64,000 nt of DNA from an uncultured Chloroflexia bacterium (GTDB taxonomy: Bacteria; Chloroflexota; Limnocylindria; Limnocylindrales; CSP1-4): positions 1,432 to 65,431 of the forward strand of contig CAVRKB010000005.1 in the NCBI GenBank assembly GCA_963721545.1, given 5' to 3'. The notes under the pieces were generated by a model. That model was given only the letters and a program-made list of their open reading frames with translations, was not told the DNA's origin and made no database searches. The translations under genes were made by a program, and so were the position numbers. This document shows positions 6,240 through 18,015 of this stretch, in pieces. The first letter of the stretch is position 1. The number at the start of each line of letters is the position of its first letter.

Positions 6240-6619
6240 GACGGTTCCTTTCCCTTGTTCATTCGCGTCTGCTCGGCCGCCGCGGCGGCGTCGAGGTGGT
6301 CGGTCAGCGCATCGAGCTGGCGGTCCCAGTCGCGGGCCAATGCGGCCAGGAATTGCTGCGCCACCTGCATCGGGGCGGAGCGAAGCCGGTACCGCACCCG
6401 GCGCCGCTCCCCCGGTTCGGCAGCGACCAGTCCGGCTTCGGCAAGCAGCGCCAGGTGCTTGGCGATGGCCTGACGGGTGATCGGCAGGCGAGCGGCCAGG
6501 TCCGTGGCCGTGGCAGGCCCGCCGGCCGCGAGTGCGGCCAGGATCGCCCGCCGGGTCGGGTCGGCCAGGGCGGTGAAGACCTCCTCGGCGACGGCCTCGA
6601 TGTCAGGCCGCGTTGGCAT
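6236..6619 (-). CDS. ArsR/SmtB-family transcriptional regulator
   Basis: The HTH reads ..FTALADPTRRAILAALAAGGPATATDLAARLPITRQAIAKHLALLAEAGLV... The probable start MPTRPDIEAV at 6619 overlaps the end of the upstream SRPBCC gene. Confidence 0.8.
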   Translation of the reverse strand: MPTRPDIEAVAEEVFTALADPTRRAILAALAAGGPATATDLAARLPITRQAIAKHLALLAEAGLVAAEPGERRRVRYRLRSAPMQVAQQFLAALARDWDRQLDALTDHLDAAAAAEQTRMNKGKEPS

Positions 6620-7040
6620 CGAGGTACTCGACCAGCTCGCCCAGCTCGCTGGCCCAGCCCTCGGTATTGGCCTCGAAGGCCGTGCGGTAGGCGTCATCGG
6701 GCAACTGCGCGAAGCCCGATTCGATGACGGTCAACCGCGTGCCCGTGCCAGTCGGCACGAGCGTGAACTCGACGTAGGTGTGGCGCGGATCGTCGTCGGC
6801 CAGGCCGTAGATGCCCCAGGTGAACCCGAAGACCGTCGGCTCTTCGACGCGTTCGATGCGCATGGTCGCCTTGTCGCCGCTCGTCCATGTCATCTGGGCC
6901 GCACCGCCGGGCCGCAGGTCGATCGTGGCCGCGTTGCCGAACCAGGTGCCGAGGCCCTCGGCCGTGGTCAGCGCCGCCCACACCTTCGCCGGCGGATGCG
7001 CGATCTCGACGGTCCGCTCGATTCGATCGGGAAATCCCAT
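6603..7040 (-). CDS. SRPBCC-superfamily protein (AHSA1-like)
   Basis: Intact 145 aa. It reads MGFPDRIERTVEIAHPPAKVWAALTTAEGLGTWFG.. and is the first gene of a three-gene operon (SRPBCC-ArsR-DUF899). Confidence 0.85.
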   Translation of the reverse strand: MGFPDRIERTVEIAHPPAKVWAALTTAEGLGTWFGNAATIDLRPGGAAQMTWTSGDKATMRIERVEEPTVFGFTWGIYGLADDDPRHTYVEFTLVPTGTGTRLTVIESGFAQLPDDAYRTAFEANTEGWASELGELVEYLDANAA

Positions 7041-7060
7041 GACAACCTCCTAAGGGTTAT

Positions 7061-7108
7061 TAGCAACCATTCGGTTGCTACTTACCATATAGCAACCGAT
7101 CGAGTTGC
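7061..7108. promoter_or_regulatory. Candidate ArsR operator: perfect 20-bp palindrome TAGCAACCATTCGGTTGCTA plus a degenerate second copy
   Basis: The palindrome at 7061-7080 lies 21 nt upstream of the SRPBCC start. A related element, TAGCAACCGATCGAGTTGC, lies at 7090-7108. Confidence 0.5.
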
Positions 7109-7156
7109 GTCAATCCCACTTGGGGGTCATACGATCTCGAAGCGAGGCCGCGCTGA

Positions 7157-8089
7157 CTAGGCGCGATTGACGACCGGTCGCTCGTGGATCACGGCCTTGG
7201 GGTCCTTGCCGTGGTCGATGCCCTTGTAGGCGGCCTGGCGGACCTTGCCGTCGCCGGTCCATCCGGCGAACTCGGCGCGGATGACCAGCCGTGGCTCGAC
7301 CCAGTTGACGGCAGGGACGCGAACCGGCGGGCCACTGAACGGTGACGCGTCGGCGGCCAGCGGGGCGAGCGCGGCGAGGAGCTCGCCCCGGATCGCGGTG
7401 GTGAAACCGGCACCGACCTTGCCCGCGTACCGCAGCTCGCCGCCCTCGTGGACGCCGACCAGCAGGGCCGCGAAGTCGGCCGCGTAGCCGGTCCCGCGCG
7501 TCCAGCCACCGACCACCAGCTCCTGCTCGGGCCGGATCTTGACCTTGAGCCAGCGGTCCGACCGCCGTCCGGGCAGGTACGGCGAGCGGCGGTCCTTGGC
7601 GACGATCCCCTCGACACCGCGCTCGCGGGCGGCCTCGAACGCGGCGATCCCCGACCCGACGACGTGGTCGCTGTAGCGCACCCGCGGGTGCTTGCGGATG
7701 CGCCTTCTTCAGCAGCGCCTTGCGCTCGTCGAGCGGCCGGTCCAGCAACGAGGCGCCATCGAGCTCGAGCAGGTCGAACGCCTGGTAGACGACGATGCCG
7801 CCACCGCACCTCGCCCCGAGCGGCCGATCTGCTGCTGCAGCAGCCCGAAGTCGGGCTCGCCCTGGGCATCGAAGGCGACGACCTCGCCGTCGACGACCGC
7901 GCTGTCGGCGTCGATCCAGGTCGGCGGCTCGAGGAACCGCCCGAAGTAGCGGCTGGCGTCCTGGTGGCCGCGGGTCCACAGCTCGACCGTGCCGTCGGAC
8001 ACGACCGCCTCCACGCGGAAGCCGTCCCACTTGGTCTCGAACAGCCAGTCGGGGTCGTCGAACGCATCGCGCGTCAGCGTCGCGCGCAT
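7157..8089 (-). pseudogene. ATP-dependent DNA ligase (LigD ligase-domain / LigC-like); at least 2 frame changes; start uncertain
   Basis: The adenylation motif FETKWDGFR (KxDG) lies in the frame of ORF 7709..8302. ..VVYQAFDLLELDGASLLDRPLDERKALLKK.. lies in a second frame. ..HPRVRYSDHVV..GVEGIVAKD..RSDRWLKVK.. lies in ORF 7157..7681. Confidence 0.75.
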
Positions 8090-8187
8090 GGGCTCGATGT
8101 ACGCGGGCTTGCGCTTCGGCGCCGTTTCCGGTCTGCCATGGGGCGATCGTGCCGCACCCGGCCGCCGACGGCAATCCTCCCTACCCG

Positions 8188-10981
8188 TCAGCGGTAGGCG
8201 CAGACGGTGTCGAGCGAGAACTCCTGGCCGCCGACGAGCACGACCTCGATCGGTCCCTCCAGCGTCCCGACGGCGGTCCGGTCGCCCTCGGGGTCGGCCC
8301 ACGACCAGCGGACGTCGCCGATCTGCTGCGGCGCCTCGATCAGCTCGTTGGGATAGATCTCGCTGCCGTTCACGGCGAGGTTCTCGTTGCCGCCCTGGTC
8401 CCGGAAGGCGAACTGGACCGCCGACGGCCGGAACGGCAGGCCACGCCAGTCGAAGGCGAGGTTGACGTTGTTGAAGGACAGGTAGGGTCCCTTGCCGAAG
8501 GTCGGGTTGGGCTCGGCCACCGTCGCGGTACCGAACGTCCCGTAGGCCGGATCGACGATGTACACCGGTGAGCCCTGGTCATGCGCCCGCGCGAGCGGGG
8601 CCTTGAGCACGATCCTGGTCCCGTTGTCGTCGCGAACGTAGTCGCTGACGATCGCGGTCTCGGCCCGCCGGCCGACATCGATGGTGAACGTGGTCCCGGG
8701 GGTCAGCCCGGACGCGTCGGGGACGGTGATCGATCTCCGAGCCGCGCTCCTCCGCGAACAACAGGGTGGCCAGGATCTGCGGCGACCACTGGAAGAACTC
8801 CGCGGTCACGCGCACGCCCTCCGGCGTTCGCAGGATCTCGTCGCCGGGCTGCTGCTTGCCGTCGTGGCCGTACGGCGTCCCGACCTGGAGATCGTCGAAC
8901 GTGACGCACGCCTCCGAGACCGGCGGCGGGGTGGGCGTCGGACAGCCCGTCGGGACGAGGTCGATGACGAGCGGTGCCTGGATCGTCGAACCCGACGACG
9001 CGGTCCCGGTCAGCCGCAGGGGCTCGCAGACGACGCCCTCGATCCGGAACTCGGCGGGATTCTCGACGCTCTCACCCACGCCATCGATGGCGATCCGGTA
9101 GTCGCCGACGCCGCCCGACACGTTGACCACGACCGTGCTGAACCAGGCGGGGCCGTCGAACGAGAACTCGCCATGCGTCGTCGCGATCGTCAGTGCCGGA
9201 GCCACCGTCACCCCGGCCGTCGGAGCCGGGGTCTCGATCGCGGCCGAGCTCGGTGCCGCGGTCTCGGCGGGGCCGAACAGGTCGGCGACGTAGCCTGCGG
9301 CCGGGGGTCCGAGGAGCGCCAGCAGCACGAGTCCGACCACGAGGGCGCCACCCCCGAGCAGCCAGCCAGGGGCCGAGCCTCCCCCATTCGTGTGGCCACC
9401 CCCGCCGCCGTTCCCGCCGGTTCCCTCGCCGGTGCCCGTCGCCGCCAGCCCGAACCAGCCCAGGTTGTGCAGCGTGTAGGCGGCACCCTCCGTGTCGCCG
9501 AGCGAGCGCCGCAAATCGAGGGCCTCGAGCAGGAACGGCTTGCCTTCGCCCGTGTCGCCGAGCGTCAGGGCCCGGGTGCCGAGCTCGTGGGCGGCCCATG
9601 CCCGGTCGGCGGGACGCTTCGCGACGTCGGCCGCTCGGTAGACGTCACGAGCGACGGTGCGCCACGCATCCCACAGGCCGTCAGCACCAGCCGTGGCGCG
9701 ATCGACCGGCCGAGGTCGACCGCGTCGTCGAACCGCCCGCGGCGCACCGCGTAATCGACGGCGCCCAGGAGCTCGCCGAGCTCGTCCTCGATGAATGCCG
9801 GATCGAGGACTCGCTCGTGCGCGGCGCTGGTCATGACGTCGAGATGCCGGTCGCCGATATCGGCCGCGAGGCCGGACGCGTCGTCCCGGACCAGCGCGCG
9901 GATGCCATCGGGCAGCCGCAACCGCGGACTGTTCAGGGTCAGCAGGTCGAACGAGGCAAGGGTCGCCGCGGCGGCGTCGAACCACGGTGGGTTGTCGAGG
10001 ATCCGCCGCAGCAGCCCCGGATCGTGCGTCCGACCGGGCATCGCGGCTGCCGCCGCCAGCAGGCGACGGGCATACGGATCGAGGGCCGGGCGAGCCAGGC
10101 CCCAGGCCCGTTCGAGAGCGACCGGCGGGCTCGTCGGCAGACCCGTGGCGATCGCGCCGAGGTCGGCCGCGGCCATGGCAGGGGTGAGCGAGCGCGCGGC
10201 CATCGCTCGCCCGCGATGACAAGCGCCTCGGGCCAGTCGGCGAGCAGCGAGCAGATCGTCGTCGACGTCCGACGTCTTGGGCGCGTCGCTTCCCGTGGCC
10301 AGCCCGGCCCGCGCCGACAGCAACAGGATCGAGTCGGCCCGGTCGAGCGCTCCCAGCGGCACGTCCTGCAGGTCGCCGCCGGCCGGAGCATCCCGGGTGG
10401 CAATGACGACCGCGCCCGCGGGCAGCAGGTCGGCCAGCCGCTCGAGGTCGTCGCCCGGCAAGGGAGACGTCGTCGACGATCGCGAGCGCCGCGACCTGGC
10501 CGAGCTCGCTTCGCGCCGACTCGGGCGTGACCTTGACCAGCGGCACCGTCTCCCACGCGGCGTCGTGGAGGCGCTGGGCGAGGTCGCCGAGGGACAGGGC
10601 GACGCCCGCGTCGTCGACGCCGTCGAGGCGGAGGACGCCGCCGGCGAGACCCGCCGCGGCGTCGTTCGCCGCCGCCCGCATGAGCGCCGTCCGGCCGGCC
10701 CCGCTCCCTCCGGACAGCGTAACCGGCTGTCGCGCGGCGATCGCCGCGGTCAGCCGCGCGAGCTCGGACCGGCGACCGACGAACGGGTCAGGCGGGCGCG
10801 GCGGGCCGGCGACCGGCCGTCGGGTGCGCTTCGGTTGGACGCGCTCGACGACGATCGTCCCGTGGTTGTCGTTGACGACGACGTTGTGGTCGCCCTGGAC
10901 GACCGAGCCGTCGACGTCCCCGTGCACCTGGATCTGCCGTTCGGCGGCCGTGGCCGCGATCGGCGGCGCCGCCGTCGCCAT
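8188..10981 (-). pseudogene. NLR-like STAND ATPase: N-terminal amyloid-like motif, P-loop/NB-ARC-like domain, short TPR, Gly-rich linker, TM helix, ~300-aa extracytoplasmic beta-rich domain; at least 4 frame changes as assembled
   Basis: One frame (ORF 8579..10981) carries the N-terminal motif IQVHGDVDGSVVQGDHNVVVNDNHGTIVV. That frame also holds Walker A VTLSGGSGAGRTAL and Walker B LAIVDDV. After an out-of-frame middle it holds the TPR-like segment (AAYTLHNLGWF), GGNGGGGGHTNGGG, the TM helix WLLGGGALVVGLVLLALLG and an exported domain. The NB-ARC-like middle (..LDRADSILLLSARAG..) is in ORF 9565..10461. The last 140 aa are in ORF 8188..8610. Confidence 0.7.
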
Positions 10982-10993
10982 GGATCGACGGCC

Positions 10994-11413
10994 TCAGGTC
11001 TCGTCGTCGTCGCGGATGCGGACCGTCCCGCTCGTGTCGCCGACGACCGTGTTGCCGCTTCCCTGGACGACGGAGCCGCCGACGCTCCCACCGATGCTGA
11101 TCGTGCTGACGTCGCCGGACGCCTCGCGATAGGTGCTCACCATCTGCTCCAGCTGGGCGGCGAACGCCGCGTCGGCTGCGACCAGGTCGGCGATGGCGGC
11201 TTCGAAGGCCGGCTGCTGCGTCGCCGGGTCCTGCTCGTAGCGCTCGACCGTGCGTTCCTCCTTCGGATCGGCCTTGAGCCGGTCGAGGACGGCCTGGGCG
11301 AGGGTCTGGGCGGCGTTGGATGCCGCCTCCCCGACCTGTTTGGCGACCGCGGTCGCCCCCTTCGTGAGGAAGCCGGTGACGATCGCAGCGACGGTAGCCG
11401 AGAGCGGCTCCAT
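10994..11413 (-). CDS. Small helix-rich protein with C-terminal G/V/Q/N-rich amyloid-like motif (Bell-domain-like effector candidate)
   Basis: Intact 139 aa starting at the ATG at 11413, preceded by GGAGGTG. The N-terminus MEPLSATVAAIVTGFLTKGATAVAK is hydrophobic, followed by an Ala/Gln/Glu-rich body. The C-terminus is ISIGGSVGGSVVQGSGNTVVGDTSGTVRI. Its stop lies 12 nt before the STAND ATPase start. Confidence 0.65.
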   Translation of the reverse strand: MEPLSATVAAIVTGFLTKGATAVAKQVGEAASNAAQTLAQAVLDRLKADPKEERTVERYEQDPATQQPAFEAAIADLVAADAAFAAQLEQMVSTYREASGDVSTISIGGSVGGSVVQGSGNTVVGDTSGTVRIRDDDET

Positions 11414-11539
11414 GTCCCACCTCCGTGGCACGCGCCCGACCATCGTAGCGCCCTGCGCAATGGCCACCGAGGCGCGCGTACCTGGCCGTCTTGCGGCCGG
11501 GTGGCCGGCCCTACACTGCGGCTCAGGAGGGGTGAGGCG

Positions 11540-12868
11540 ATGACGACGGACACACCACGCGACGAGGCGATCAGCCGGGTCGTGGAATCGGCGACGCGGA
11601 TGGGGGTCGAGCTCGACGCGCACGAGGCCGCCGAGTGGGTGGCCGCGATGGAGACCGAGGCCAGCGGCGGCGAGCTGGTCGTCGACGTCGACACCGGGGT
11701 CTACGGCCACCGGGTGACGATGCTCGACTTCCTGCCCGAGGACCTCGCCCGCTTCCGCGAGATGGCCACGATCGTCGGCTTCGAGGACCGGCCGCCGCAG
11801 GTGCTGACGGCGCTGTCGATCTCGGGCTCGGCGGCGCAGAGCAAGATCAACGCCTACCCGGCCGATTGCGACTTCTTCGAGCGCGTCCACATCCGCGCCG
11901 ACACGCGCCAGGAGGCGTGCGCGATCCTCGCCGACCTGATGCGCGAGAAGGCGCTGGCGACGATGGTCGGACCGACGCATCGGCTGTGGGAGGTCAAGTT
12001 CGGGTCGCATCCGGTGGCCGCCACGAAGGGTGGCAGCCCGGTCGGGGCCGGGTCGCCGATGTCGTGGACGGCCGAGGAGGTCAAGGCCGGCCAGATGGAG
12101 GTCACCCTGCCCGACGGCGCGCTGCGGGTCTACACCTGGGAGGACGCCTCGCACGAGCCCGGCTGGTGCAAGCTCGACTGGGTGATCGCCGACCGGACGC
12201 GCGGGCAGCTGGCCAACGCCAGCAACGTCCTCGACCCGACCTGGGAGGCGCCAGACGGCACGATCGTGCCGCTCGACGGCTTCCTCGACCCGTACTACCA
12301 GGAGGTCTATCTCGAGTCGGAGTCGATCCCGCTGTTCTCGAAGCTGGTCAAGGAGCTGTCGGCCGACTCGGTCGACGATTACGTCGACACGCTCGAGCAC
12401 GAGGTCTGGAAGTACACCGTCCAGGACCCCAACTACGGCAAGGCCGCGCGCCGGATGTACAACGTCTTCCGGATGAACGGGCACTACCGCGAGGCGGCCT
12501 ACATCCGCGAGCTGTTCGACGAGCCGGTCACCGCGCTGTACCAGGTCTCCGCGCTGGTCCGGACGCTCGACGATGCCGCGTCGTCGGGCGACGTGTTCGA
12601 GACCGACACGATGGTCTCGCAGGTCGACGGCCTGATCATGTCGGCGATCCAGGCGCTCGACGGGCCGGAGGAGGCCGAGATGGTCGGCCACCTGCTGCGG
12701 CTGCGCAACTCGCTCCAGGCACGCGAGGCCCGGGCCGAACGGACCGACGAGATGAGCGGCATCCAGGACGCCGCGCTCAAGGCCGTGAACACCTATTTCG
12801 AGCGGGCATTGCGCTCCGTGCCGGAGATCGAGGCCTACCTCGAGGACATCGCCAGGCGCGCGCCGTAG
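11540..12868 (+). CDS. Uncharacterised protein with Pol-beta-superfamily nucleotidyltransferase signature
   Basis: Intact 442 aa with an AGGAGG SD 6-7 nt before the ATG at 11540. The signature hG[GS]-X11-DxD reads LSISGSAAQSKINAYPADCDFFERV (G96 S97 ... D109 x D111). A later strand with an acidic residue (WCKLDWVIAD) is a candidate third carboxylate. The C-terminal half is helix-rich. Confidence 0.6.
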   Translation: MTTDTPRDEAISRVVESATRMGVELDAHEAAEWVAAMETEASGGELVVDVDTGVYGHRVTMLDFLPEDLARFREMATIVGFEDRPPQVLTALSISGSAAQSKINAYPADCDFFERVHIRADTRQEACAILADLMREKALATMVGPTHRLWEVKFGSHPVAATKGGSPVGAGSPMSWTAEEVKAGQMEVTLPDGALRVYTWEDASHEPGWCKLDWVIADRTRGQLANASNVLDPTWEAPDGTIVPLDGFLDPYYQEVYLESESIPLFSKLVKELSADSVDDYVDTLEHEVWKYTVQDPNYGKAARRMYNVFRMNGHYREAAYIRELFDEPVTALYQVSALVRTLDDAASSGDVFETDTMVSQVDGLIMSAIQALDGPEEAEMVGHLLRLRNSLQAREARAERTDEMSGIQDAALKAVNTYFERALRSVPEIEAYLEDIARRAP

Positions 12869-13094
12869 CACCCGCGAGATCTGCGGTGCCGTATCGCACC
12901 GCACCCAACGGCAGCGAACCGCAGCGGACCGGCACGCTTCGACCGCACGCGCCCCGTGGTCGCCCCCGGAGCCCGACCAAAGTACCGCTGGTTGCGGCGG
13001 CGGCCACGCATCGACACTCGCCCGGCGGGAAAGCCCGCGACCGGCGTATGCCGGCCCAGCACTCATCTTCCCGGGGGCGAGGGAGAGGACATCG

Positions 13095-13866
13095 ATGCTC
13101 ACGCGATTGCGCTCGACCTGGCTGGCCGGCGGCGGGGCGCTGCTGCTGGCCCTGTCAGTGACCGGGTTCGTGGCCGGGGCCACGCTGGTCGCCGACACCG
13201 ACCCGCTTGTCGGACCGGCTGAGCCGGTCCTGGAGACGCCCGATACCACGCTGACGTTCGAGGACGTCGATGGCGACGGTGTCGACGACGACTGCGACGA
13301 CGCCGTGGTGGCCGATCAGGTCGCCGCGGATGCCGCGAACGCCGCCGTTGACGCGAACGCCGATGGCGTCGTGTCCGTGCCGGAAGCGGCGCACAGCGAC
13401 CGCGTCGGCGGCCCGAACTGCAACCACGGCGGGTACGTGAGCCTCATCGCACAGACGTCCGGCGACGAATGCGACGACGGCGGACGCCGCCGAGGACGCG
13501 GACGAGACCGACCCCGAGGCCGGCGCGGATGAGCTGGACGAGGCCGAGACCCCGGCCGACGAGTCAGCCGACGCGTGCGCCGACGAGACCGAGGAAGCCG
13601 CGGACGAGACCGCGCCCGAGCCGGCCGTCTGCGAGACCCCGGTCGAAGAGCCGGCACCGGAAGAGGAAGCTCCGATCGACACCGCGCCGAACGCGCACGG
13701 CAAGGCCGTCTCCGAGGTCGCCAAGTCCGACGCCGTCGGTGGCAAGAACTGCAACCACGGCGGGGCGGTCAGCGAGGCCGCCAAGAAGGACCACGGCGCC
13801 AAGCAGGCCCACCTCCACGGCAAGTCTGCCGGGAAGGGCCACGGCAAGGGCCACAACAAGCCCTAG
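13095..13866 (+). pseudogene. Secreted acidic protein with duplicated VGG-x-NCNHGG-x-VS motif and His/Lys/Gly-rich tail; one frame change near 13480
   Basis: The signal/anchor is MLTRLRSTWLAGGGALLLALSVTGFVAGA, followed by TDPLVGPAEP and a D/E-rich region. The motifs are AAHSDRVGGPNCNHGGYVS and, after the frame change, VAKSDAVGGKNCNHGGAVSEAAK. The protein ends ..HLHGKSAGKGHGKGHNKP* at 13866. Confidence 0.55.
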
Positions 13867-13906: not shown

Positions 13907-16900
13907 TCAGAGGCGCCAGGTGATCGGTGCGCGCGGGTCCGGCGTGTAGGAACAGAACGTGCCAGTTCGTATGGTGGCATCGAGGTGCGCGCTCAACCCG
14001 TCACTGTGCTCGCCGATCCGCGTCAGCGACGAGCGGATCGCCCGGGTGACGCTGATCCGGGCACGCTCGGCCGCTGACGACGCGACGCGGTCACGACCCC
14101 CGAGTCCGAGTGCGGCGGCCAGTTCGTGGGTCAATGCGTCGGATTCCTCCTGGAGGCGCGCCGCGCGCTCGGGATCGTTCCACGCCTCGGCCTGAGCGAG
14201 CTCCTGCTGCAGTTCACGAAGCCGCTCCCGGTAGGCGGCCTTCGCCTCGGCGTCGAGGAGCGGACCGGCGTCGTCCGATCCACGCATGTCGGTCATGGAT
14301 GGATCCACGACGCCGCGTTGCTCGCTGACCGGCGCCTCGAACCTCGCGAGCTCAAGGGCGTGGACGTCGCGGCCCGGGGACTCGAGCAGTCGTGACAGGT
14401 GGCGCATCCCCTTCGCGTCGCGGACGCGGAACGTGTCGGCGCCAAACTCCAGCGTCCAGTACTCGCCCTCGCGACGGAACGTCGCCGACTCGATCGAGCC
14501 GAGGGTGACCGGGCTCGGCGCCGTGGTCGGGACCATCGTCTGGTCCGCGACCGCGGTGATCCGCTCGGCGAGCGCCATCCCGAGCGCCACCGCCGTGTCC
14601 CGGGCGGCGCGATCCAGCGCCTCGGCCCGGGCAGGATCCCCCGGAGCCCCTCGCCGCCGCAGCAGCTCGGCAAGGTCGTGCTGGGCATGGGCCGTCCATG
14701 GCCGAGCGCCCAACGCCTCGTTCAGCTCGACCGCGGCGGCCAGGTGTCGCTCCGCGTCATCGAGTCGGCCGAGGGTCGCCGCCAGCAGACCGAGATAGCG
14801 ATCGACGGCCCCCACGCTCCCCTCTGCATGTCCGATCGCGTGCCGCCCGGCGAACGGTTCGAGCTGGCCATACAGCGTCGCAGCCGCTTCGACGTCGCCC
14901 AGCAGCGCGCATGACTCGGCGGCGATGCTGATCCCGAACAGCCACTCGCTGTCGCGGTAGAACATCCGGAACTCGTCTCTCGACATCTCGTCGAAGACTT
15001 CGCGTGCCTCCACGTCACGCCCGATGTCGGCCAGGAGACAGGCCAATGCCGCCCGGTGGAGCGGGTACCACGGAAAGTCGTCGACCGACGCTCGCACGGT
15101 TGCCAGCTCCTCGCCGACCCGACCCTGCTCGCGACGGAGCAGGAAGCGCTGCATCCGGCCGGCCAATTCGTCGTCGCGCGCCGACGGCATCCGGCGCCTG
15201 GAGAGCATCCTCGGGATGAGCTCCTCCGCGAGCGCGAAATCGCCGTCGATCAACGCCAGCAGTGAGCGGGGCGCGACGCCGAGCCAAAGTTGCGCCGGTT
15301 GGCGCAACTCCTCGGCCATTCGAGTCACCGCGTCGACGGCGAGCCGGGCCTCGGTCATCCGGCTGGCCTCGCTGTAGTCCATGAACAGCATCAGGTGCGC
15401 GTCGACCAGCCGTTCGCCGTCGCCCAACGCCTCGACGATGGCGACCATCTCGGCCGCGATGGGATTGCGCTCGGCGGGGTTCTCCGGCCACCAGATGGCC
15501 CAGTATCGAGCGGCAAGGGCGTAGCTCAGCGTCGCCAGGTCGTCCAACTCCCGGGCGATCTGCACCGCCTGGAGGCTGAGGGCCGCGCTGTCATCGCGTC
15601 GGTCCGGGGAGCTCCGCCACGCGCAGGCGAGTCGGGCCAGAAGGAAGACCCGCAGGCGCCGGTCGCCACCGCCCAGCATCACCAGCGCGTCCTGCAGCAG
15701 CGGGATCAGCCGCGTGTCCCGTCCAGGTCTGGCCCACGGCAGGCGGCCGCCGTACCCGAGAGCGGCTTGCGCCAGGTGCTCGCCGGCCCCGGTCCGGCGC
15801 GCGGCGTCGGCGGCCAGGAGGTAGGTGACCCGGGCACCCTCGAAATCGCCGGCGCGCGCCTGGACCTCCCCGAGCGCCAGCAGGATCTCCGTGCGCGATC
15901 GCTCATCGGTCGCGCCGGTCAGATCCATCCCGGCGAGCGCCATGCGGTAGAGACGGTCGGCCTCTTCGTAGGCGAGCGAGCGGGCCGCCTGATCGCCGGC
16001 GCGCCGCGCATAGTCGATGGCCCTCGGTCCGACAGGCTCGCCGGCATCGGTGGCGGCACCGTCACCTTCGACCGCCTTGACGTAATGGAACGCCAGCTCG
16101 GCCAGGTGCGCGTCGATGGATGTCGGGTAGAGCGCTTCGATGACCTCGGCGACGCGTTGGTGGAGACGTGCCCGGCGCTTGGGTGACAGCTCGCCGTAGA
16201 GCGTCTCACGCACGAGGTCATGCGAGAACCGGTAGCGACCGTGCGCGCCGGCGACCGGCAGGAGCAGTCCAGCCAGGACGGCTTCATCGACGAGGTCCAT
16301 CGCGGGGTCGACGTCAAGGTCGCCGATCCGGCGCAGGACCTCCAGGCTGAATTCGGGACCGAGGGCGGCACCAAGTCCGAGGACCCGGCCGCAGCCCTTG
16401 CTGAGGTTCTCGATCCGCCGCGCGATGACGGCCCGGACCCCGGCCGGGACCACGAGCGTCAGGGACGGCAGGTCGGCGACGTCGTTGAGTCGCCCCTCGG
16501 CGGCCAGCAGGCGGACGGCTTCGCTGACGAACAGCGGGTTGCCGTTCGTCTCCCGCCAGACCGCGGCGACCAGGTGATCGCTCGGCACGGAATCCGTGGT
16601 CGAGCGAATGAACGCCTCGACTGCATCGGGCTGCAGCCCGGACAGCACCAACGACCGGGTGATCGGCTCGCGGGCGACTTCGGCCAGGGCGGCGGTCAGC
16701 GGATGATCGGGCGTCAGCACGACATCGCGGTAGGTCCCGACCAGGAGCAGCGGCATGTCCGCCATCTGGCTCGCCACGAAGCGGAGCAGCAGGATCGAGG
16801 GCGTGTCGGCCGCATGGAGGTCGTCGAGGATGACGAGCAGCGGGTGGGCGGCGGCCGCATTGCGCAGGAAGGTGGCGGTCGAGTCGAACAGCTGGAAGCG

Positions 16901-17317
16901 CGCCGACTCCGATTCCGCATCGGCCGGAGCCGGGAGGTCCGGGAAGCTATGGCGCAGCTCCGGGAGCATCTGGGCGATATCCCGCGCACCTGACCCCAGC
17001 TGTCGTCGGAGCTCGTCGCGGTCGGCGGCGCGCAGGTGGGCTCGCAGCACCTGCACCCACGGCCAGTAGGCGGGTGCCCCGGCGCCATCCCAACCGCGGC
17101 CCCACAGCACCTGGTGCCCGCTCCCTCGGGCCCGTGTCGCCAGTTCGTCCGCGAGGCGACTCTTCCCGATGCCGGGCTCCCCACCGAGCAGGATGACCCG
17201 ACCTCGTCCGGATCCGGACGCATCGAGCGCTTCGAGCATCTCCGCGAGCTCGCGGTCGCGGCCGACGAACAAGGCCCCTTCGTGCATCTGCTTCCGATCC
17301 ATGGTGCTGCCCGGCAT
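13907..17317 (-). CDS. Large STAND-type ATPase (AAA_16-like P-loop + TPR-like helical repeats + conserved C-terminal module)
   Basis: Intact ~1137 aa from MPGSTMDRKQMHEGALFVGRDRELAEM (start at 17317 or 17302). Walker A is LLGGEPGIGKSRLA and Walker B is LLVILDDLHAAD. A long helical-repeat region follows. The C-terminus is FRREGEYWTLEFGADTFRVRDAKGMRHLSRLLESPGRDVHALEL plus a coiled-coil-like tail. I recognise no N-terminal effector or DNA-binding domain. Confidence 0.8.
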   Translation of the reverse strand: MPGSTMDRKQMHEGALFVGRDRELAEMLEALDASGSGRGRVILLGGEPGIGKSRLADELATRARGSGHQVLWGRGWDGAGAPAYWPWVQVLRAHLRAADRDELRRQLGSGARDIAQMLPELRHSFPDLPAPADAESESARFQLFDSTATFLRNAAAAHPLLVILDDLHAADTPSILLLRFVASQMADMPLLLVGTYRDVVLTPDHPLTAALAEVAREPITRSLVLSGLQPDAVEAFIRSTTDSVPSDHLVAAVWRETNGNPLFVSEAVRLLAAEGRLNDVADLPSLTLVVPAGVRAVIARRIENLSKGCGRVLGLGAALGPEFSLEVLRRIGDLDVDPAMDLVDEAVLAGLLLPVAGAHGRYRFSHDLVRETLYGELSPKRRARLHQRVAEVIEALYPTSIDAHLAELAFHYVKAVEGDGAATDAGEPVGPRAIDYARRAGDQAARSLAYEEADRLYRMALAGMDLTGATDERSRTEILLALGEVQARAGDFEGARVTYLLAADAARRTGAGEHLAQAALGYGGRLPWARPGRDTRLIPLLQDALVMLGGGDRRLRVFLLARLACAWRSSPDRRDDSAALSLQAVQIARELDDLATLSYALAARYWAIWWPENPAERNPIAAEMVAIVEALGDGERLVDAHLMLFMDYSEASRMTEARLAVDAVTRMAEELRQPAQLWLGVAPRSLLALIDGDFALAEELIPRMLSRRRMPSARDDELAGRMQRFLLRREQGRVGEELATVRASVDDFPWYPLHRAALACLLADIGRDVEAREVFDEMSRDEFRMFYRDSEWLFGISIAAESCALLGDVEAAATLYGQLEPFAGRHAIGHAEGSVGAVDRYLGLLAATLGRLDDAERHLAAAVELNEALGARPWTAHAQHDLAELLRRRGAPGDPARAEALDRAARDTAVALGMALAERITAVADQTMVPTTAPSPVTLGSIESATFRREGEYWTLEFGADTFRVRDAKGMRHLSRLLESPGRDVHALELARFEAPVSEQRGVVDPSMTDMRGSDDAGPLLDAEAKAAYRERLRELQQELAQAEAWNDPERAARLQEESDALTHELAAALGLGGRDRVASSAAERARISVTRAIRSSLTRIGEHSDGLSAHLDATIRTGTFCSYTPDPRAPITWRL

Positions 17318-17480
17318 CGAAGCATACCGGCGCGATTCGGCGCGCGGATCGATGTTCGGTGTCGTGACATCGGGCTGAACAGTCGTTCCGTCCGTTCTCA
17401 CGCCTGAGGGGCAGAGGCACCCGCCGCAAGGTCCGACTCCCGGACCGCAACCATCGGCGGGGCGGAACGGGAGGATCGTG

Positions 17481-17927
17481 ATGGATCTGGCACACAGCAA
17501 CAGCAGCGCACTGGAGATCGGCGATGCAGGCGCGACCGGTGCCGGCCGAGCGAGGTTCGTGGCGGGCATCATGATCGTCGTCGCTGTCACGGCGCTCGTC
17601 GCGACCGCAGTGATCGCCGAGTCCCGTGGCAGCATCGGCCCGGCCACCCAGACCGATCCGCTCGTCGGACCGGCAGCCATCGAGTTCCGGGCCGGCGAGC
17701 ACGGCCTGACCAGCACCCAGACCGATCCGCTCGTCGGACCGGCAGCCATCGAGTTCCGGGCCGGCGAGCACGGCCTGACCGGGACCCAGGCCGATCCGCT
17801 CGTCGGACCGGCAGCCATCGAGTTCCGGGCCGGCGAGCACGGCCTGACCGGGACCCAGGCCGATCCGCTCGTCGGACCGGCAGCCATCGAGTTCCGGGCC
17901 GGCGAGCACGAGGGCGCCGCCCGGTAG
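17481..17927 (+). CDS. Small single-pass membrane protein with four tandem 23-aa repeats (TQxDPLVGPAAIEFRAGEHGLTx)
   Basis: GGGAGGA at 17469-17475 lies 5 nt before the ATG at 17481. The TM segment is FVAGIMIVVAVTALVATAVIA. About 3.8 near-identical 23-aa units then follow. The gene is divergent from the large ATPase. Confidence 0.55.
   Translation: MDLAHSNSSALEIGDAGATGAGRARFVAGIMIVVAVTALVATAVIAESRGSIGPATQTDPLVGPAAIEFRAGEHGLTSTQTDPLVGPAAIEFRAGEHGLTGTQADPLVGPAAIEFRAGEHGLTGTQADPLVGPAAIEFRAGEHEGAAR
17646..17909. repeat. 69-bp tandem repeat, about 3.8 copies (coding repeat of the small membrane protein)
   Basis: Units start at 17646, 17715, 17784 and 17853 (ACCCAGACCGATCCGCTCGTCGGACCGGCAGCCATCGAGTTCCGGGCCGGCGAGCACGGCCTGACC...). 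Only a few substitutions separate the units. Confidence 0.9.
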
Positions 17928-18015
17928 GACGAGCATCGAATCCCCACTCCCCGTCAACGCCCGAGGATGCGAATCCTCGGGCGTTGTCACGCCCTCCGCG
18001 CGACCTACCCTGGGA

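What the first reader, a model, noticed from the sequence alone, without database searches (positions are those of the whole stretch)
8188..10981. NLR-like STAND ATPase that crosses the membrane: TPR region followed by a TM helix and a ~300-aa extracytoplasmic domain, with Walker A Lys replaced by Arg
Seen in sequence, all in one continuous reading frame from about 9650 to 8740:
- a short TPR-like region (..EGAAYTLHNLGWF..);
- a Gly-rich linker (GGNGGGGGHTNGGG);
- a clear hydrophobic helix (WLLGGGALVVGLVLLALLG);
- a Cys-containing, beta-rich domain (..VVCEPLRLTGT..TGCPTPTPPPVSEACVTFDD..) that continues after a frame change to ..LDTVCAYR* at 8188.

The same frame upstream carries the amyloid-like motif and the P-loop. 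The Walker A reads GGSGAGRT, where the CGG codon puts Arg at the canonical Lys position. Walker B (LAIVDDV) is canonical.

Established: NLR/STAND proteins normally sense ligands through cytosolic C-terminal repeats. Inference: here the presumed sensor end would sit outside the cell. This suggests a receptor-like STAND protein coupling an extracellular cue to a cytoplasmic amyloid or cell-death output. I am not aware of a described Bell/BASS NLR with this topology. The K-to-R change could mean altered or lost NTPase activity.
Basis: partly seen in the sequence, partly recalled or inferred. Interest (0 to 1): 0.7.

Follow-up and report, generated by a model that had tools for sequence, protein, structure and literature searches.

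The report
Membrane-spanning bacterial NLR with amyloid partner
This gene encodes a relative of the cell-death sensors called NLRs that, unlike the usual cytoplasmic ones, crosses the membrane once and places a variable binding domain outside the cell; it belongs to a large family I could not find described, and the frame breaks in this copy are assembly errors.

Summary
Window 10981..8188 (minus strand) encodes one protein of about 930 aa, broken by five one-base indels. Near-identical assemblies read straight through all five sites, so they are assembly errors.

The domain order is: N-terminal amyloid-type motif, divergent NB-ARC-type STAND module (model of the 59%-identical ortholog matches Apaf-1, TM 0.59), short TPR, Gly-rich linker, one TM helix, Pro/Ala/Thr-rich linker, Ig-like domain, Cys-bracketed beta-sandwich. 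A 139-aa Bell-like gene ends 12 nt upstream. Its C-terminal motif matches the receptor's N-terminus and co-varies with it across loci.

Orthologs are single ORFs with the same order. An exhaustive search found several hundred related clusters. Of 123 representatives, 112 have exactly one TM helix after the TPR, followed by swapped secreted-type domains such as LysM, PG_binding_1, PD40 and CBM96. The topology is therefore N-in/C-out.

Walker A Arg (CGG/CGC in five assemblies) is fixed in the actinobacterial subclade (12 of 123). The whole clade also lacks the MHD histidine.

The most likely function is a surface-receptor-like NLR that triggers amyloid activation of a Bell effector. This is a new variant of a known kind. 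The ligand and the output were not tested.

The parts
10994..11413 (-). Bell-like effector gene (139 aa). It has an N-terminal hydrophobic helix (MEPLSATVAAIVTGFL, acidic residue at position 2), a helical body, and a C-terminal amyloid-type motif ISIGGSVGGSVVQGSGNTVVGDTSGTVRI.
   Evidence: The gene is conserved directly upstream of the receptor in L001, L003, L004, L005 and L009, and nearby in L002. Its features fit the Bell description in Dyrka et al., bioRxiv 10.1101/2020.01.06.895854. It has no Pfam, PADLOC or PDB sequence hit.
8188..10981 (-). Receptor gene: one ORF of about 930 aa once five one-base assembly indels are repaired (delete 10461, delete 10261, insert after 10212, insert after 9681, delete 8734).
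10838..10936 (-). N-terminal amyloid-type signalling motif (res 16-48, QIQVHGDVDGSVVQGDHNVVVNDNHGTIVVERV). It matches the C-terminus of the Bell-like protein.
   Evidence: Motif pairs co-vary between loci. The motif is present in most family members. AF2 gives short low-confidence strands here in the ortholog.
9889..10792 (-). Divergent NB-ARC-type NOD (NBD, helical domain, winged helix; res about 64-364).
   Evidence: The family profile hits PF00931-bearing HTH-NB-ARC-TPR proteins at E 1e-18 to 1e-10. The AF2 model of ortholog P0001 (pLDDT 86, pTM 0.79) matches Apaf-1 1z6t at TMq 0.59 and probability 1.0, and also STAND-TPR 6mfv, plant NLRs, CED-4, MalT and Avs3.
10688..10711 (-). Walker A GGSGAGRT, with Arg (CGG, 10693..10691) at the Lys position.
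10466..10486 (-). Walker B LAIVDDV.
9452..9861 (-). Short TPR-like helical repeat region (res about 374-510, about 3.5 hairpins).
   Evidence: TPR_12 is below its cut-off. There are weak profile hits to the LGN TPR. AF2 helices span 374-508 in the ortholog.
9365..9451 (-). Gly-rich linker (res 511-539). It is variable among orthologs.
9287..9364 (-). Single transmembrane helix (res 540-565, WLLGGGALVVGLVLLALLGPP...).
   Evidence: Kyte-Doolittle 2.30. The segment is conserved in 112 of 123 family representatives. Lys+Arg is biased to the N-terminal side, 2.13 against 0.89. AF2 builds a helix at the equivalent position in the ortholog.
9188..9286 (-). Pro/Ala/Thr/Ser-rich extracytoplasmic linker (res 566-598).
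8939..9187 (-). Ig-like beta domain with a conserved Cys pair (res 599-681, GGxGxY motif).
   Evidence: AF2 pLDDT is about 90. Two orthologs give weak SprB-repeat hits. The Cys residues are invariant.
8191..8914 (-). Beta-sandwich domain bracketed by conserved Cys residues (ACVTFDD ... DTVCAYR; res 690-930). A small domain of about 80 aa is inserted at 8539..8776, and is found only in the window type, P0001 and P0078.
   Evidence: AF2 model. The same domain stands alone behind lipoprotein signal peptides in P0080 and P0081, and follows Laminin_G_3 in P0079. It occurs in tandem copies in proteins carrying the type IX secretion sorting domain. Foldseek gives only generic beta-sandwich or CBM-like matches.

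Best explanation
The locus is a two-gene amyloid-signalling cell-death module whose NLR-type component is a single-pass membrane receptor.

Shown:
- The receptor has an N-terminal amyloid-type motif, a divergent NB-ARC NOD and a short TPR on one side of a single TM helix. An Ig-like domain and a beta-sandwich domain lie on the other side.
- The family-wide pattern of outside domains and charge bias places the N-terminus in the cytoplasm and the C-terminus outside.
- A Bell-like protein with a matching, co-varying motif is encoded 12 nt upstream.

Inferred:
- The outside module binds an envelope-associated or external ligand, such as a glycan, cell-wall fragment, phage or neighbour-cell component.
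- Ligand-driven clustering of receptors brings the cytoplasmic NODs together.
- The clustered N-terminal motifs adopt an amyloid fold that templates the motif of the Bell-like protein.
- The hydrophobic N-terminal helix of that protein is then released into the membrane and kills or arrests the cell.

The Walker A Lys is replaced by Arg, the MHD histidine is lost throughout the clade, and sensor-1 and Walker B vary. Activation probably depends less on an ADP/ATP exchange and hydrolysis cycle than in canonical NLRs, and more on receptor clustering.
For: Architecture and single ORF.

Frame breaks are errors. Purifying selection acts on both halves (dN/dS 0.20 cytoplasmic, 0.14 outside).

NOD identity.

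Topology:
- One TM helix in 112 of 123 representatives.
- Lys+Arg 2.13 on the N side against 0.89 on the C side; 43% Pro/Thr/Ser in the linker; Cys 1.38% outside against 0.52% inside.
- Relatives carry PG_binding_1 (E 3e-20), PD40 (E 1e-16 to 1e-31), LysM, CBM96, DUF7507, SdrD_B, Calx-beta, HYR and PKD after the TM helix.
- The window's own C-terminal domain also occurs behind lipoprotein signal peptides and in proteins with a type IX secretion sorting domain.

Partner:
- Bell-like genes with matching motifs are found in seven loci. In L008 and L010 the motif is instead carried by a trypsin-like protease, as expected for an exchangeable effector.
- In a few members the N-terminal motif is replaced by EAD7 or CHAT.
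- Amyloid templating from an NLR or sensor to a Bell-type effector has experimental precedent (Dyrka et al., bioRxiv 10.1101/2020.01.06.895854; Ibarlosa et al., bioRxiv 10.1101/2024.11.07.622273).

The short TPR (about 3.5 hairpins) leaves little cytoplasmic sensor surface.
Against: - No ligand, no oligomerisation, no amyloid formation and no toxicity was tested.
- The fold of the outside module gives no specific functional match.
- Some relatives have only a low-complexity tail after the TM helix (P0019, P0020). LysM and PG_binding_1 are as typical of wall anchors as of sensors. The conserved element could therefore be membrane tethering rather than outside sensing.
- How a single helix would transmit a signal is unknown.
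- PADLOC has no model for either protein, and the neighbourhood is not an obvious defence island.
- The NOD model is of the ortholog P0001, which is 69% identical to the window protein in this region, and not of the window protein itself.
Confidence: 0.55

Rival explanations
1. Membrane tether, not outside sensor. The TM helix and outside domains only fix the NLR at the membrane or cell wall, for example at septa or next to the place where the Bell effector acts. The trigger is sensed in the cytoplasm by the NOD and short TPR.
For: - The TM helix is the conserved element, while the outside part is freely exchanged. In P0019 and P0020 it is reduced to low-complexity tails.
- LysM and PG_binding_1 are classic wall-anchoring modules.
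- The Bell effector acts on the membrane.
Against: - Large, structured, Cys-stabilised outside modules under purifying selection (dN/dS 0.14), in many different folds including beta-propellers and CBMs, are more than a tether needs.
- The cytoplasmic repeat region is unusually short for a sensor.
Confidence: 0.27
2. Envelope-integrity guard. The outside domain is normally bound to the cell's own wall or an envelope partner, and loss of that contact (lysis from without, phage endolysin or depolymerase, antibiotic damage) releases the NOD for assembly.
For: Peptidoglycan-binding and TolB-like PD40 modules recur in relatives. Guard-type logic is common in NLR biology (general knowledge).
Against: The window's own outside domains have no detectable peptidoglycan-binding family. 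No data bear on it.
Confidence: 0.12
3. Decaying pseudogene, or two separate genes joined by misreading. The frame breaks would be real, and the TM/exodomain part would be a separate or dead gene.
For: There are five frame changes in the window copy. L001 is also broken, at other sites.
Against: - The breaks differ between 95-99% identical assemblies and affect all neighbouring genes alike.
- P0013 and P0075 read through every window break.
- dN/dS is 0.19.
- At least 100 relatives are intact single ORFs.
Confidence: 0.03

Closest known systems
Bell/BASS - NB-ARC-TPR amyloid signalling gene pairs of filamentous Actinobacteria and Cyanobacteria (Dyrka et al. 2020, bioRxiv 10.1101/2020.01.06.895854)
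   Same: - A small helical effector with a hydrophobic N-terminal helix.
- A C-terminal motif of about 25 aa repeated at the N-terminus of an adjacent, collinear NB-ARC/TPR protein.
- A tiny intergenic gap.
- Found in Actinobacteria and Chloroflexi.
   Different: - The described NLRs are soluble, and that paper never mentions a transmembrane segment.
- Here the NOD is too divergent to hit Pfam NB-ARC, so it would have escaped their screen, which required NB-ARC or NACHT hits.
- The TPR is short and is followed by a TM helix and outside domains.
- Which BASS class the motif belongs to was not determined.
Bab/Agp antiphage abortive-infection system of E. coli (Ibarlosa et al. 2024, bioRxiv 10.1101/2024.11.07.622273)
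   Same: A two-gene module in which a sensor activates a Bell-related membrane-targeting effector through a shared amyloid motif. This is experimental proof of the principle in bacteria.
   Different: [quoted passage not shown] Bab is 109 aa. The motif family (BASS11) is different.
Bacterial NACHT proteins with 'TM regions' (Kibby et al. 2022, bioRxiv 10.1101/2022.07.19.500537, Supplementary Discussion)
   Same: [quoted passage not shown]
   Different: Those proteins have NACHT modules, typically with multiple TM regions that are sometimes inserted in the NACHT. No amyloid partner and no large globular outside domains are described. None was characterised.
Apaf-1 / CED-4 / plant CNL NB-ARC modules
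   Same: The predicted fold of the NBD-HD1-WHD core (TMq 0.59 to ADP-bound Apaf-1), and the GLPL-like and Walker motifs in the same positions.
   Different: Walker A Lys is replaced by Arg, the MHD His by Pro, and sensor-1 Arg is not conserved. The protein is membrane-anchored and its output is an amyloid motif rather than a CARD or CC domain.
Eukaryotic cell-surface pattern-recognition receptors (LysM or LRR receptor kinases, Toll-like receptors): analogy only
   Same: A single-pass membrane protein with a variable ligand-binding ectodomain and a cytoplasmic module that signals by induced proximity.
   Different: There is no homology. The cytoplasmic module here is an NLR-type NOD, a combination not seen in plants or animals, where surface receptors and NLRs are separate proteins.
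GAP1-N2-type GTPase conflict systems with C-terminal TM and cadherin domains (Kaur et al. 2020, PMC7159879)
   Same: [quoted passage not shown]
   Different: A different NTPase class (GTPase, not STAND) and no amyloid signalling.

Membership tests
STAND NTPase, NB-ARC (AP-ATPase) lineage | Tripartite NOD fold (P-loop NBD, helical domain, winged helix) | tested here: met
   The AF2 model of ortholog P0001 res 1-553 (pLDDT 86.4, pTM 0.79) matches Apaf-1 1z6t (TMq 0.59, rmsd 4.4 A, probability 1.0), STAND-TPR 6mfv, NRC2, CED-4, MalT and Avs3. The window protein is 69% identical to P0001 in this region.
STAND NTPase, NB-ARC (AP-ATPase) lineage | Sequence-profile relationship to NB-ARC (PF00931) | tested here: inconclusive
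   The window protein gives only sub-threshold AAA_16, nSTAND1 and TPR_12 hits and no PF00931 hit. However, the family profile retrieves PF00931-bearing HTH-NB-ARC-TPR proteins at E 1e-18 to 1e-10 with up to 98% coverage. Nine of 50 family members hit NB-ARC at E <= 1e-4.
STAND NTPase, NB-ARC (AP-ATPase) lineage | Walker A GxxxxGK[ST] with catalytic Lys | tested here: not met
   The motif is GGSGAGRT, with Arg in place of Lys (codon CGG; CGG or CGC in five assemblies). Arg is found in 12 of 123 family representatives, Lys in 101 and other residues in 10.
STAND NTPase, NB-ARC (AP-ATPase) lineage | Walker B hhhhD[DE] | tested here: met
   The window has LAIVDDV. Across the family the second position is highly variable: D, G, E, H, N, R or S.
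STAND NTPase, NB-ARC (AP-ATPase) lineage | MHD motif histidine in the winged helix (contacts ADP) | tested here: not met
   The column that reads R-M-H-D-L in NB-ARC relatives reads R-L-P-D-G here. It is His in only 12 of 123 family members.
STAND NTPase, NB-ARC (AP-ATPase) lineage | C-terminal superstructure-forming repeats (TPR, WD40 or LRR) | tested here: met
   A short TPR-like region: TPR_12 or TPR_10 at E about 1e-4 in 6 of 11 members, LGN TPR profile matches, and about 3.5 helical hairpins in the AF2 model. This is much shorter than in the soluble relatives.
Bell/BASS amyloid signalling pair (Dyrka et al. 2020) | Effector and NLR genes adjacent and collinear, with a very short gap | tested here: met
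   The Bell-like stop codon is at 10996..10994 and the receptor ATG at 10981, a gap of 12 nt on the same strand. The same arrangement is found in L001, L003, L004, L005 and L009.
Bell/BASS amyloid signalling pair (Dyrka et al. 2020) | A motif of about 25 aa shared by the effector C-terminus and the NLR N-terminus | tested here: met
   ISIGGSVGGSVVQGSGNTVVGDTSGTVRI against IQVHGDVDGSVVQGDHNVVVNDNHGTIVV. The pairs change together in L003, L004, L005, L008 and L009.
Bell/BASS amyloid signalling pair (Dyrka et al. 2020) | Effector is a Bell domain (120-140 aa, helical bundle, hydrophobic N-terminal helix with an acidic residue at position 2-3) | tested here: inconclusive
   The descriptive features are met: 139 aa and MEPLSATVAAIVTGFL. 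No Bell profile is available in Pfam, NCBIfam or PADLOC, and there is no PDB sequence hit, so homology was not tested.
Bell/BASS amyloid signalling pair (Dyrka et al. 2020) | The motif forms amyloid and cross-seeds; it belongs to one of BASS1-11 | not testable with these tools
   This needs fibril and prion assays. The BASS logos are figures that the library does not hold.
Bacterial NACHT proteins of the 'TM regions' class (Kibby et al. 2022) | NACHT-type NOD with multiple TM regions | tested here: not met
   The best structural and profile relatives are NB-ARC and Apaf-1. There is exactly one TM helix, after the TPR.

The most novel reading that the evidence does not exclude
Bacteria possess a large, unrecognised class of cell-surface pattern-recognition receptors built on an NLR chassis. 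A variable ectodomain (Ig/beta-sandwich here; LysM, PG-binding, beta-propeller, CBM and others elsewhere) binds an extracellular or envelope ligand. Clustering across a single TM helix assembles a largely nucleotide-independent NOD (Walker A Arg, no MHD His). An N-terminal amyloid motif then converts a Bell pore-former, so that an outside cue is coupled directly to regulated cell death in filamentous Actinobacteria and Chloroflexota.
Probability: 0.35. Interest if true: 0.85.

Novelty: new variant of a known kind. Interest (0 to 1): 0.66.

Why it matters
NLRs are textbook intracellular receptors. In plants and animals, sensing outside the cell is left to separate surface receptors. Here the two are fused in one protein: an NLR-type switch with its variable end outside the cell, wired to an amyloid-activated membrane-killing partner.

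The family is not a curiosity. An exhaustive search returned 881 cluster representatives at E <= 1e-30 (this count includes fragments and proteins that share only the outside domain). Of 123 examined, 112 have the same single-pass layout, with many different ectodomains.

If the outside domain is the sensor, this gives a tractable system for three questions:
- Whether bacteria trigger regulated cell death from extracellular cues such as phage at the surface, wall damage or neighbours.
- How an NLR can be activated by clustering rather than by nucleotide exchange.
- How amyloid signalling is nucleated at a membrane.

The finding also shows that Pfam-based NLR censuses miss this clade.

Tried and rejected
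- **Direct family scans.** Pfam, NCBIfam and PADLOC scans of the repaired protein and the Bell-like protein gave only sub-threshold AAA_16, nSTAND1, TPR_12 and FxSxx_TPR hits, and nothing in PADLOC.
- **PDB sequence search with family profiles.** Only P-loop and TPR fragments for the receptor, and nothing meaningful for the Bell-like protein.
- **Foldseek of the three-domain outside model.** Against PDB and the viral library it gave only low-TM (<= 0.24) generic beta-sandwich, CBM or phage-tail matches. Local probability-1.0 hits to phage tailspike and K1 lyase pieces probably reflect the inserted small domain. No function can be read from this.
- **Base-call error for Arg.** Rejected.
- **Two genes or pseudogene.** Rejected.
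- **'Rare family'.** This was my early impression from the word-indexed searches. The exhaustive search overturned it.
- **'Walker A Arg goes with Walker B DD, Lys with DH'.** This looked like covariation among the first 10 homologs, but it is not general, because 20 Lys-type members also have DD.
- **Literature.** Four full-text searches and seven papers were read. I found no description of a BASS/Bell NLR with a TM helix and ectodomain. This is absence in the searched library, not proof.
Full report
**1. What is in the sequence**

The window is about 72% G+C. On the minus strand between 10981 and 8188, three reading frames together carry one protein-like sequence. The Walker A Arg codon is CGG at 10693..10691.

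The frame changes five times, near 10461, 10261, 10212, 9681 and 8734.

**2. The frame breaks are assembly errors**

- A syntenic ENA metagenome contig (L001, 95% identical over 7 kb) differs from the window by about 60 scattered one-base indels, spread over every gene, including the neighbouring LigD-like gene.
- L001's copy is broken at other places (P0002).
- Proteins from a third assembly, P0013 (99% identical) and P0075 (97% identical), read straight through all five window breaks.
- Five one-base edits guided by L001 give a 2,793-nt ORF of 930 codons with no internal stop.
- Codon-wise comparison with L001 gives dN/dS of 0.19 overall, 0.20 for the cytoplasmic part and 0.14 for the outside part.

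The gene is therefore intact and under selection. It is neither two genes nor a pseudogene.

**3. Orthologs keep the architecture**

The first homology search found single-ORF relatives with the same order of parts: P0001 (918 aa, 59% identity, 99% coverage) and P0003-P0008 (837-864 aa). P0009 and P0015 have a different C-terminal end, and P0010 has a long DUF7507-repeat tail.

Each has exactly one strongly hydrophobic segment (Kyte-Doolittle 2.0-2.8 over 19 residues), located just after the TPR region.

**4. The cytoplasmic part is a divergent NB-ARC-type STAND module**

Pfam alone does not show this. It gives only AAA_16, nSTAND1 and TPR_12 below their cut-offs, and a PDB sequence search finds only P-loop and TPR fragments.

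- A profile of the module retrieves actinobacterial HTH-NB-ARC(PF00931)-TPR proteins at E 1e-18 to 1e-10, with up to 98% coverage.
- An AlphaFold2 model of residues 1-553 of ortholog P0001 has pLDDT 86.4 and pTM 0.79. P0001 is 69% identical to the window protein in this region.
- The model matches ADP-bound Apaf-1 (1z6t: TMq 0.59, rmsd 4.4 A, probability 1.0). It also matches a bacterial STAND-TPR protein (6mfv), plant NLRs, CED-4, MalT and Avs3.

Aligned with the NB-ARC relatives, the motifs line up but are altered:

| Motif | NB-ARC relatives | This clade |
|---|---|---|
| Walker A | GxGKT | GAGRT |
| GLPL | GLPLAL | DWPEAL |
| MHD | R-M-H-D-L | R-L-P-D-G |
| Sensor-1 Arg | conserved | not conserved |

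The repeat region that follows has only about 3.5 helical hairpins.

**5. The Arg is real but is a subclade trait**

The codon is CGG or CGC in five independent assemblies, two changes away from any Lys codon.

Among 123 family representatives, Walker A has Lys in 101, Arg in 12 and another residue in 10. The second Walker B position and the MHD position vary widely. The clade as a whole therefore shows relaxed constraint on residues that canonical NLRs use to bind and hydrolyse nucleotide.

A natural precedent for degenerate motifs in a bacterial STAND protein is KpAvs8 (PMC13581612). Walker A Lys-to-Arg substitutions usually cripple hydrolysis in P-loop NTPases; this is general knowledge and was not tested here.

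**6. The partner gene**

A 139-aa ORF (11413..10994, minus strand) ends 12 nt before the receptor's start codon. It begins MEPLSATVAAIVTGFL, is predicted to be helical, and ends in ISIGGSVGGSVVQGSGNTVVGDTSGTVRI. That motif resembles the receptor's N-terminal IQVHGDVDGSVVQGDHNVVVNDNHGTIVV.

- The same pairing is found upstream of the orthologs in L001, L003 and L004, nearby in L002, and in the Chloroflexota loci L005 and L009. The two motifs change together from locus to locus.
- In L008 and L010 the matching motif sits at the C-terminus of a trypsin-like protease instead.
- In a few family members the N-terminal motif is replaced by an EAD7 or CHAT domain.

This is the organisation described for Bell/BASS-NLR pairs: an effector of 120-140 aa, a hydrophobic N-terminal helix with an acidic residue at position 2-3, a shared motif of about 25 aa, and a tiny gap (Dyrka et al., bioRxiv 10.1101/2020.01.06.895854). 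It was shown experimentally to signal by amyloid templating in E. coli Bab/Agp (bioRxiv 10.1101/2024.11.07.622273).

No Bell profile was available, so homology of the effector was not tested.

**7. The part after the helix is extracytoplasmic**

(a) *The window's own domains.* AlphaFold2 (pLDDT 86.6) gives an Ig-like domain, then a beta-sandwich whose first and last strands carry conserved Cys residues, with an inserted small domain of about 80 aa.
- The sandwich domain occurs alone behind lipoprotein signal peptides (P0080 '...LAAC', P0081 '...LSAC') and after a Laminin_G_3 domain (P0079).
- It also occurs in two to seven tandem copies in proteins that end in the type IX secretion sorting domain.

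(b) *Relatives.* In GTDB genomes the family is found in Chloroflexota and Actinomycetes MAGs. After the helix these proteins carry PD40 beta-propellers (E 1e-16 to 1e-31), PG_binding_1 (E 3e-20) or unknown domains.

(c) *Census.* An exhaustive HMMER search of 1.84 billion cluster representatives gave 881 hits at E <= 1e-30. This count includes fragments and proteins that share only the outside domain.
- Of 123 NOD-containing representatives among the best 150, 112 have exactly one TM-like segment 13-54 residues after the TPR. The tails after it are 76-1039 aa long. The rest are mostly truncated.
- A sample of 50 carries DUF7507, SdrD_B, LysM (8 members), CarboxypepD_reg, PD40, CBM96, Calx-beta, HYR, PKD, GH99 and Ig-like domains after the helix.

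(d) *Composition across 111 members*.

| Measure | N-terminal (inside) | C-terminal (outside) |
|---|---|---|
| Lys+Arg in the 15 residues flanking the helix | 2.13 | 0.89 |
| Cys content of the whole part | 0.52% | 1.38% |

The N side has more Lys+Arg in 75 members and less in 15. The first 60 residues after the helix are 43% Pro/Thr/Ser.

Neither the receptor nor the Bell-like protein has an N-terminal signal peptide, and the NOD must meet its cytoplasmic partner. Together this fixes an N-in/C-out orientation as far as sequence analysis can.

**8. What the outside module binds is unknown**

Foldseek of the whole three-domain model gives only generic beta-sandwich, CBM, glycosidase-accessory or phage-tail matches with TM <= 0.24.

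**9. Mechanism**

The best-supported reading is a receptor-like NLR. An outside ligand or envelope change clusters the receptors, the NODs assemble, the N-terminal motifs nucleate an amyloid fold, and this converts the Bell-like protein into a membrane-damaging form.

The architecture, topology and partner are shown. Ligand sensing, clustering, amyloid formation and death are inferred.

- The main rival is that the helix and ectodomain only tether the complex to the membrane or wall. In its favour are relatives with only low-complexity tails (P0019, P0020) and anchor-type LysM and PG-binding modules.
- A guard-type variant, in which loss of wall contact activates the receptor, is also open.

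**10. Comparison with the literature**

- The BASS paper does not mention transmembrane NLRs. Its screen required Pfam NB-ARC or NACHT hits, which this clade mostly lacks.
- Kibby et al. list bacterial NACHT proteins with 'TM regions', typically several, as likely sensors of intramembrane or periplasmic signals.
- Dore et al. predict periplasmic C-type-lectin targets in NACHT proteins diversified by diversity-generating retroelements.
- Kaur et al. describe GTPase conflict systems with a C-terminal TM helix and cadherin domains.

The idea of membrane-associated bacterial NLR-like sensors therefore exists. I found no description of this NB-ARC-type, single-pass, ectodomain-bearing, amyloid-signalling family. 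I class it as a new variant of a known kind.

**11. Caveats**

- The window sequence is error-rich, so single-residue statements rest on agreement with other assemblies.
- The NOD model is of an ortholog, not the window protein.
- The TM call uses hydropathy and charge bias, not a dedicated predictor.
- The census uses 50%-identity representatives from metagenomes with no annotation.
- The neighbourhood (TPP enzyme, DUF899, AHSA1, LigD-like, a second large AAA_16-TPR protein) is not an evident defence island.

Noticed in passing
window 6400-13400 (whole window likely): The assembly is rich in one-base indels. Against the 95%-identical contig L001 there are about 60 indels in 7 kb, not confined to homopolymers. 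Many ORFs in this window will look frame-broken for this reason, and gene calls here should not be trusted without correction.
   Followed up: partly
window 7110-8302 (-): The LigD-like ATP-dependent DNA ligase gene (DNA_ligase_A_M in the L001 ortholog) is split over three frames in the window, by the same kind of indels.
   Followed up: partly
window 13907-17947 (-); L001 3-4523: A second, much larger AAA_16 (E 6.6e-25) + TPR_12 protein (>= 1346 aa) lies about 3 kb upstream of the Bell-like gene on the same strand. It may be another STAND-type regulator. Its relation to the pair is unknown.
   Followed up: no
window about 11560-12868 (+); L001 4666-5769 (-): A 367-aa ORF with no Pfam hit is divergently oriented next to the Bell-like gene. 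It is conserved in L001 but not seen next to the pair in L003 or L004.
   Followed up: no
L002 2337-3154: In the P0001 locus, two small ORFs (82 aa and 190 aa, both with hydrophobic segments and no Pfam hit) are inserted between the Bell-like gene and the receptor. The Bell-like protein there has an extra Pro-rich C-terminal tail.
   Followed up: no
L008 5037-5822; L010 63-848: In Chloroflexota relatives, the protein that carries the matching amyloid-type motif is a Trypsin_2-like protease (E 5e-5) rather than a Bell-like protein. The effector of this receptor family therefore seems to be exchangeable.
   Followed up: partly
window 8539-8776 (-): A module of about 80 aa (SITVPDASGLTPGTTFTIDVGRRAETAIV...APLARAHDQGSPVYIV) is inserted into the C-terminal beta-sandwich, only in the window type, P0001 and P0078. 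It probably accounts for the local probability-1.0 Foldseek hits to phage tailspike and K1 capsule lyase pieces (7w1c, 6e0v).
   Followed up: no
P0157, P0178, P0180, P0183, P0187, P0195-P0198, P0203: The Cys-bracketed C-terminal sandwich domain has no Pfam family of its own. It nevertheless occurs in up to seven tandem copies in large proteins with type IX secretion sorting domains, so it is an unannotated extracellular repeat domain.
   Followed up: partly
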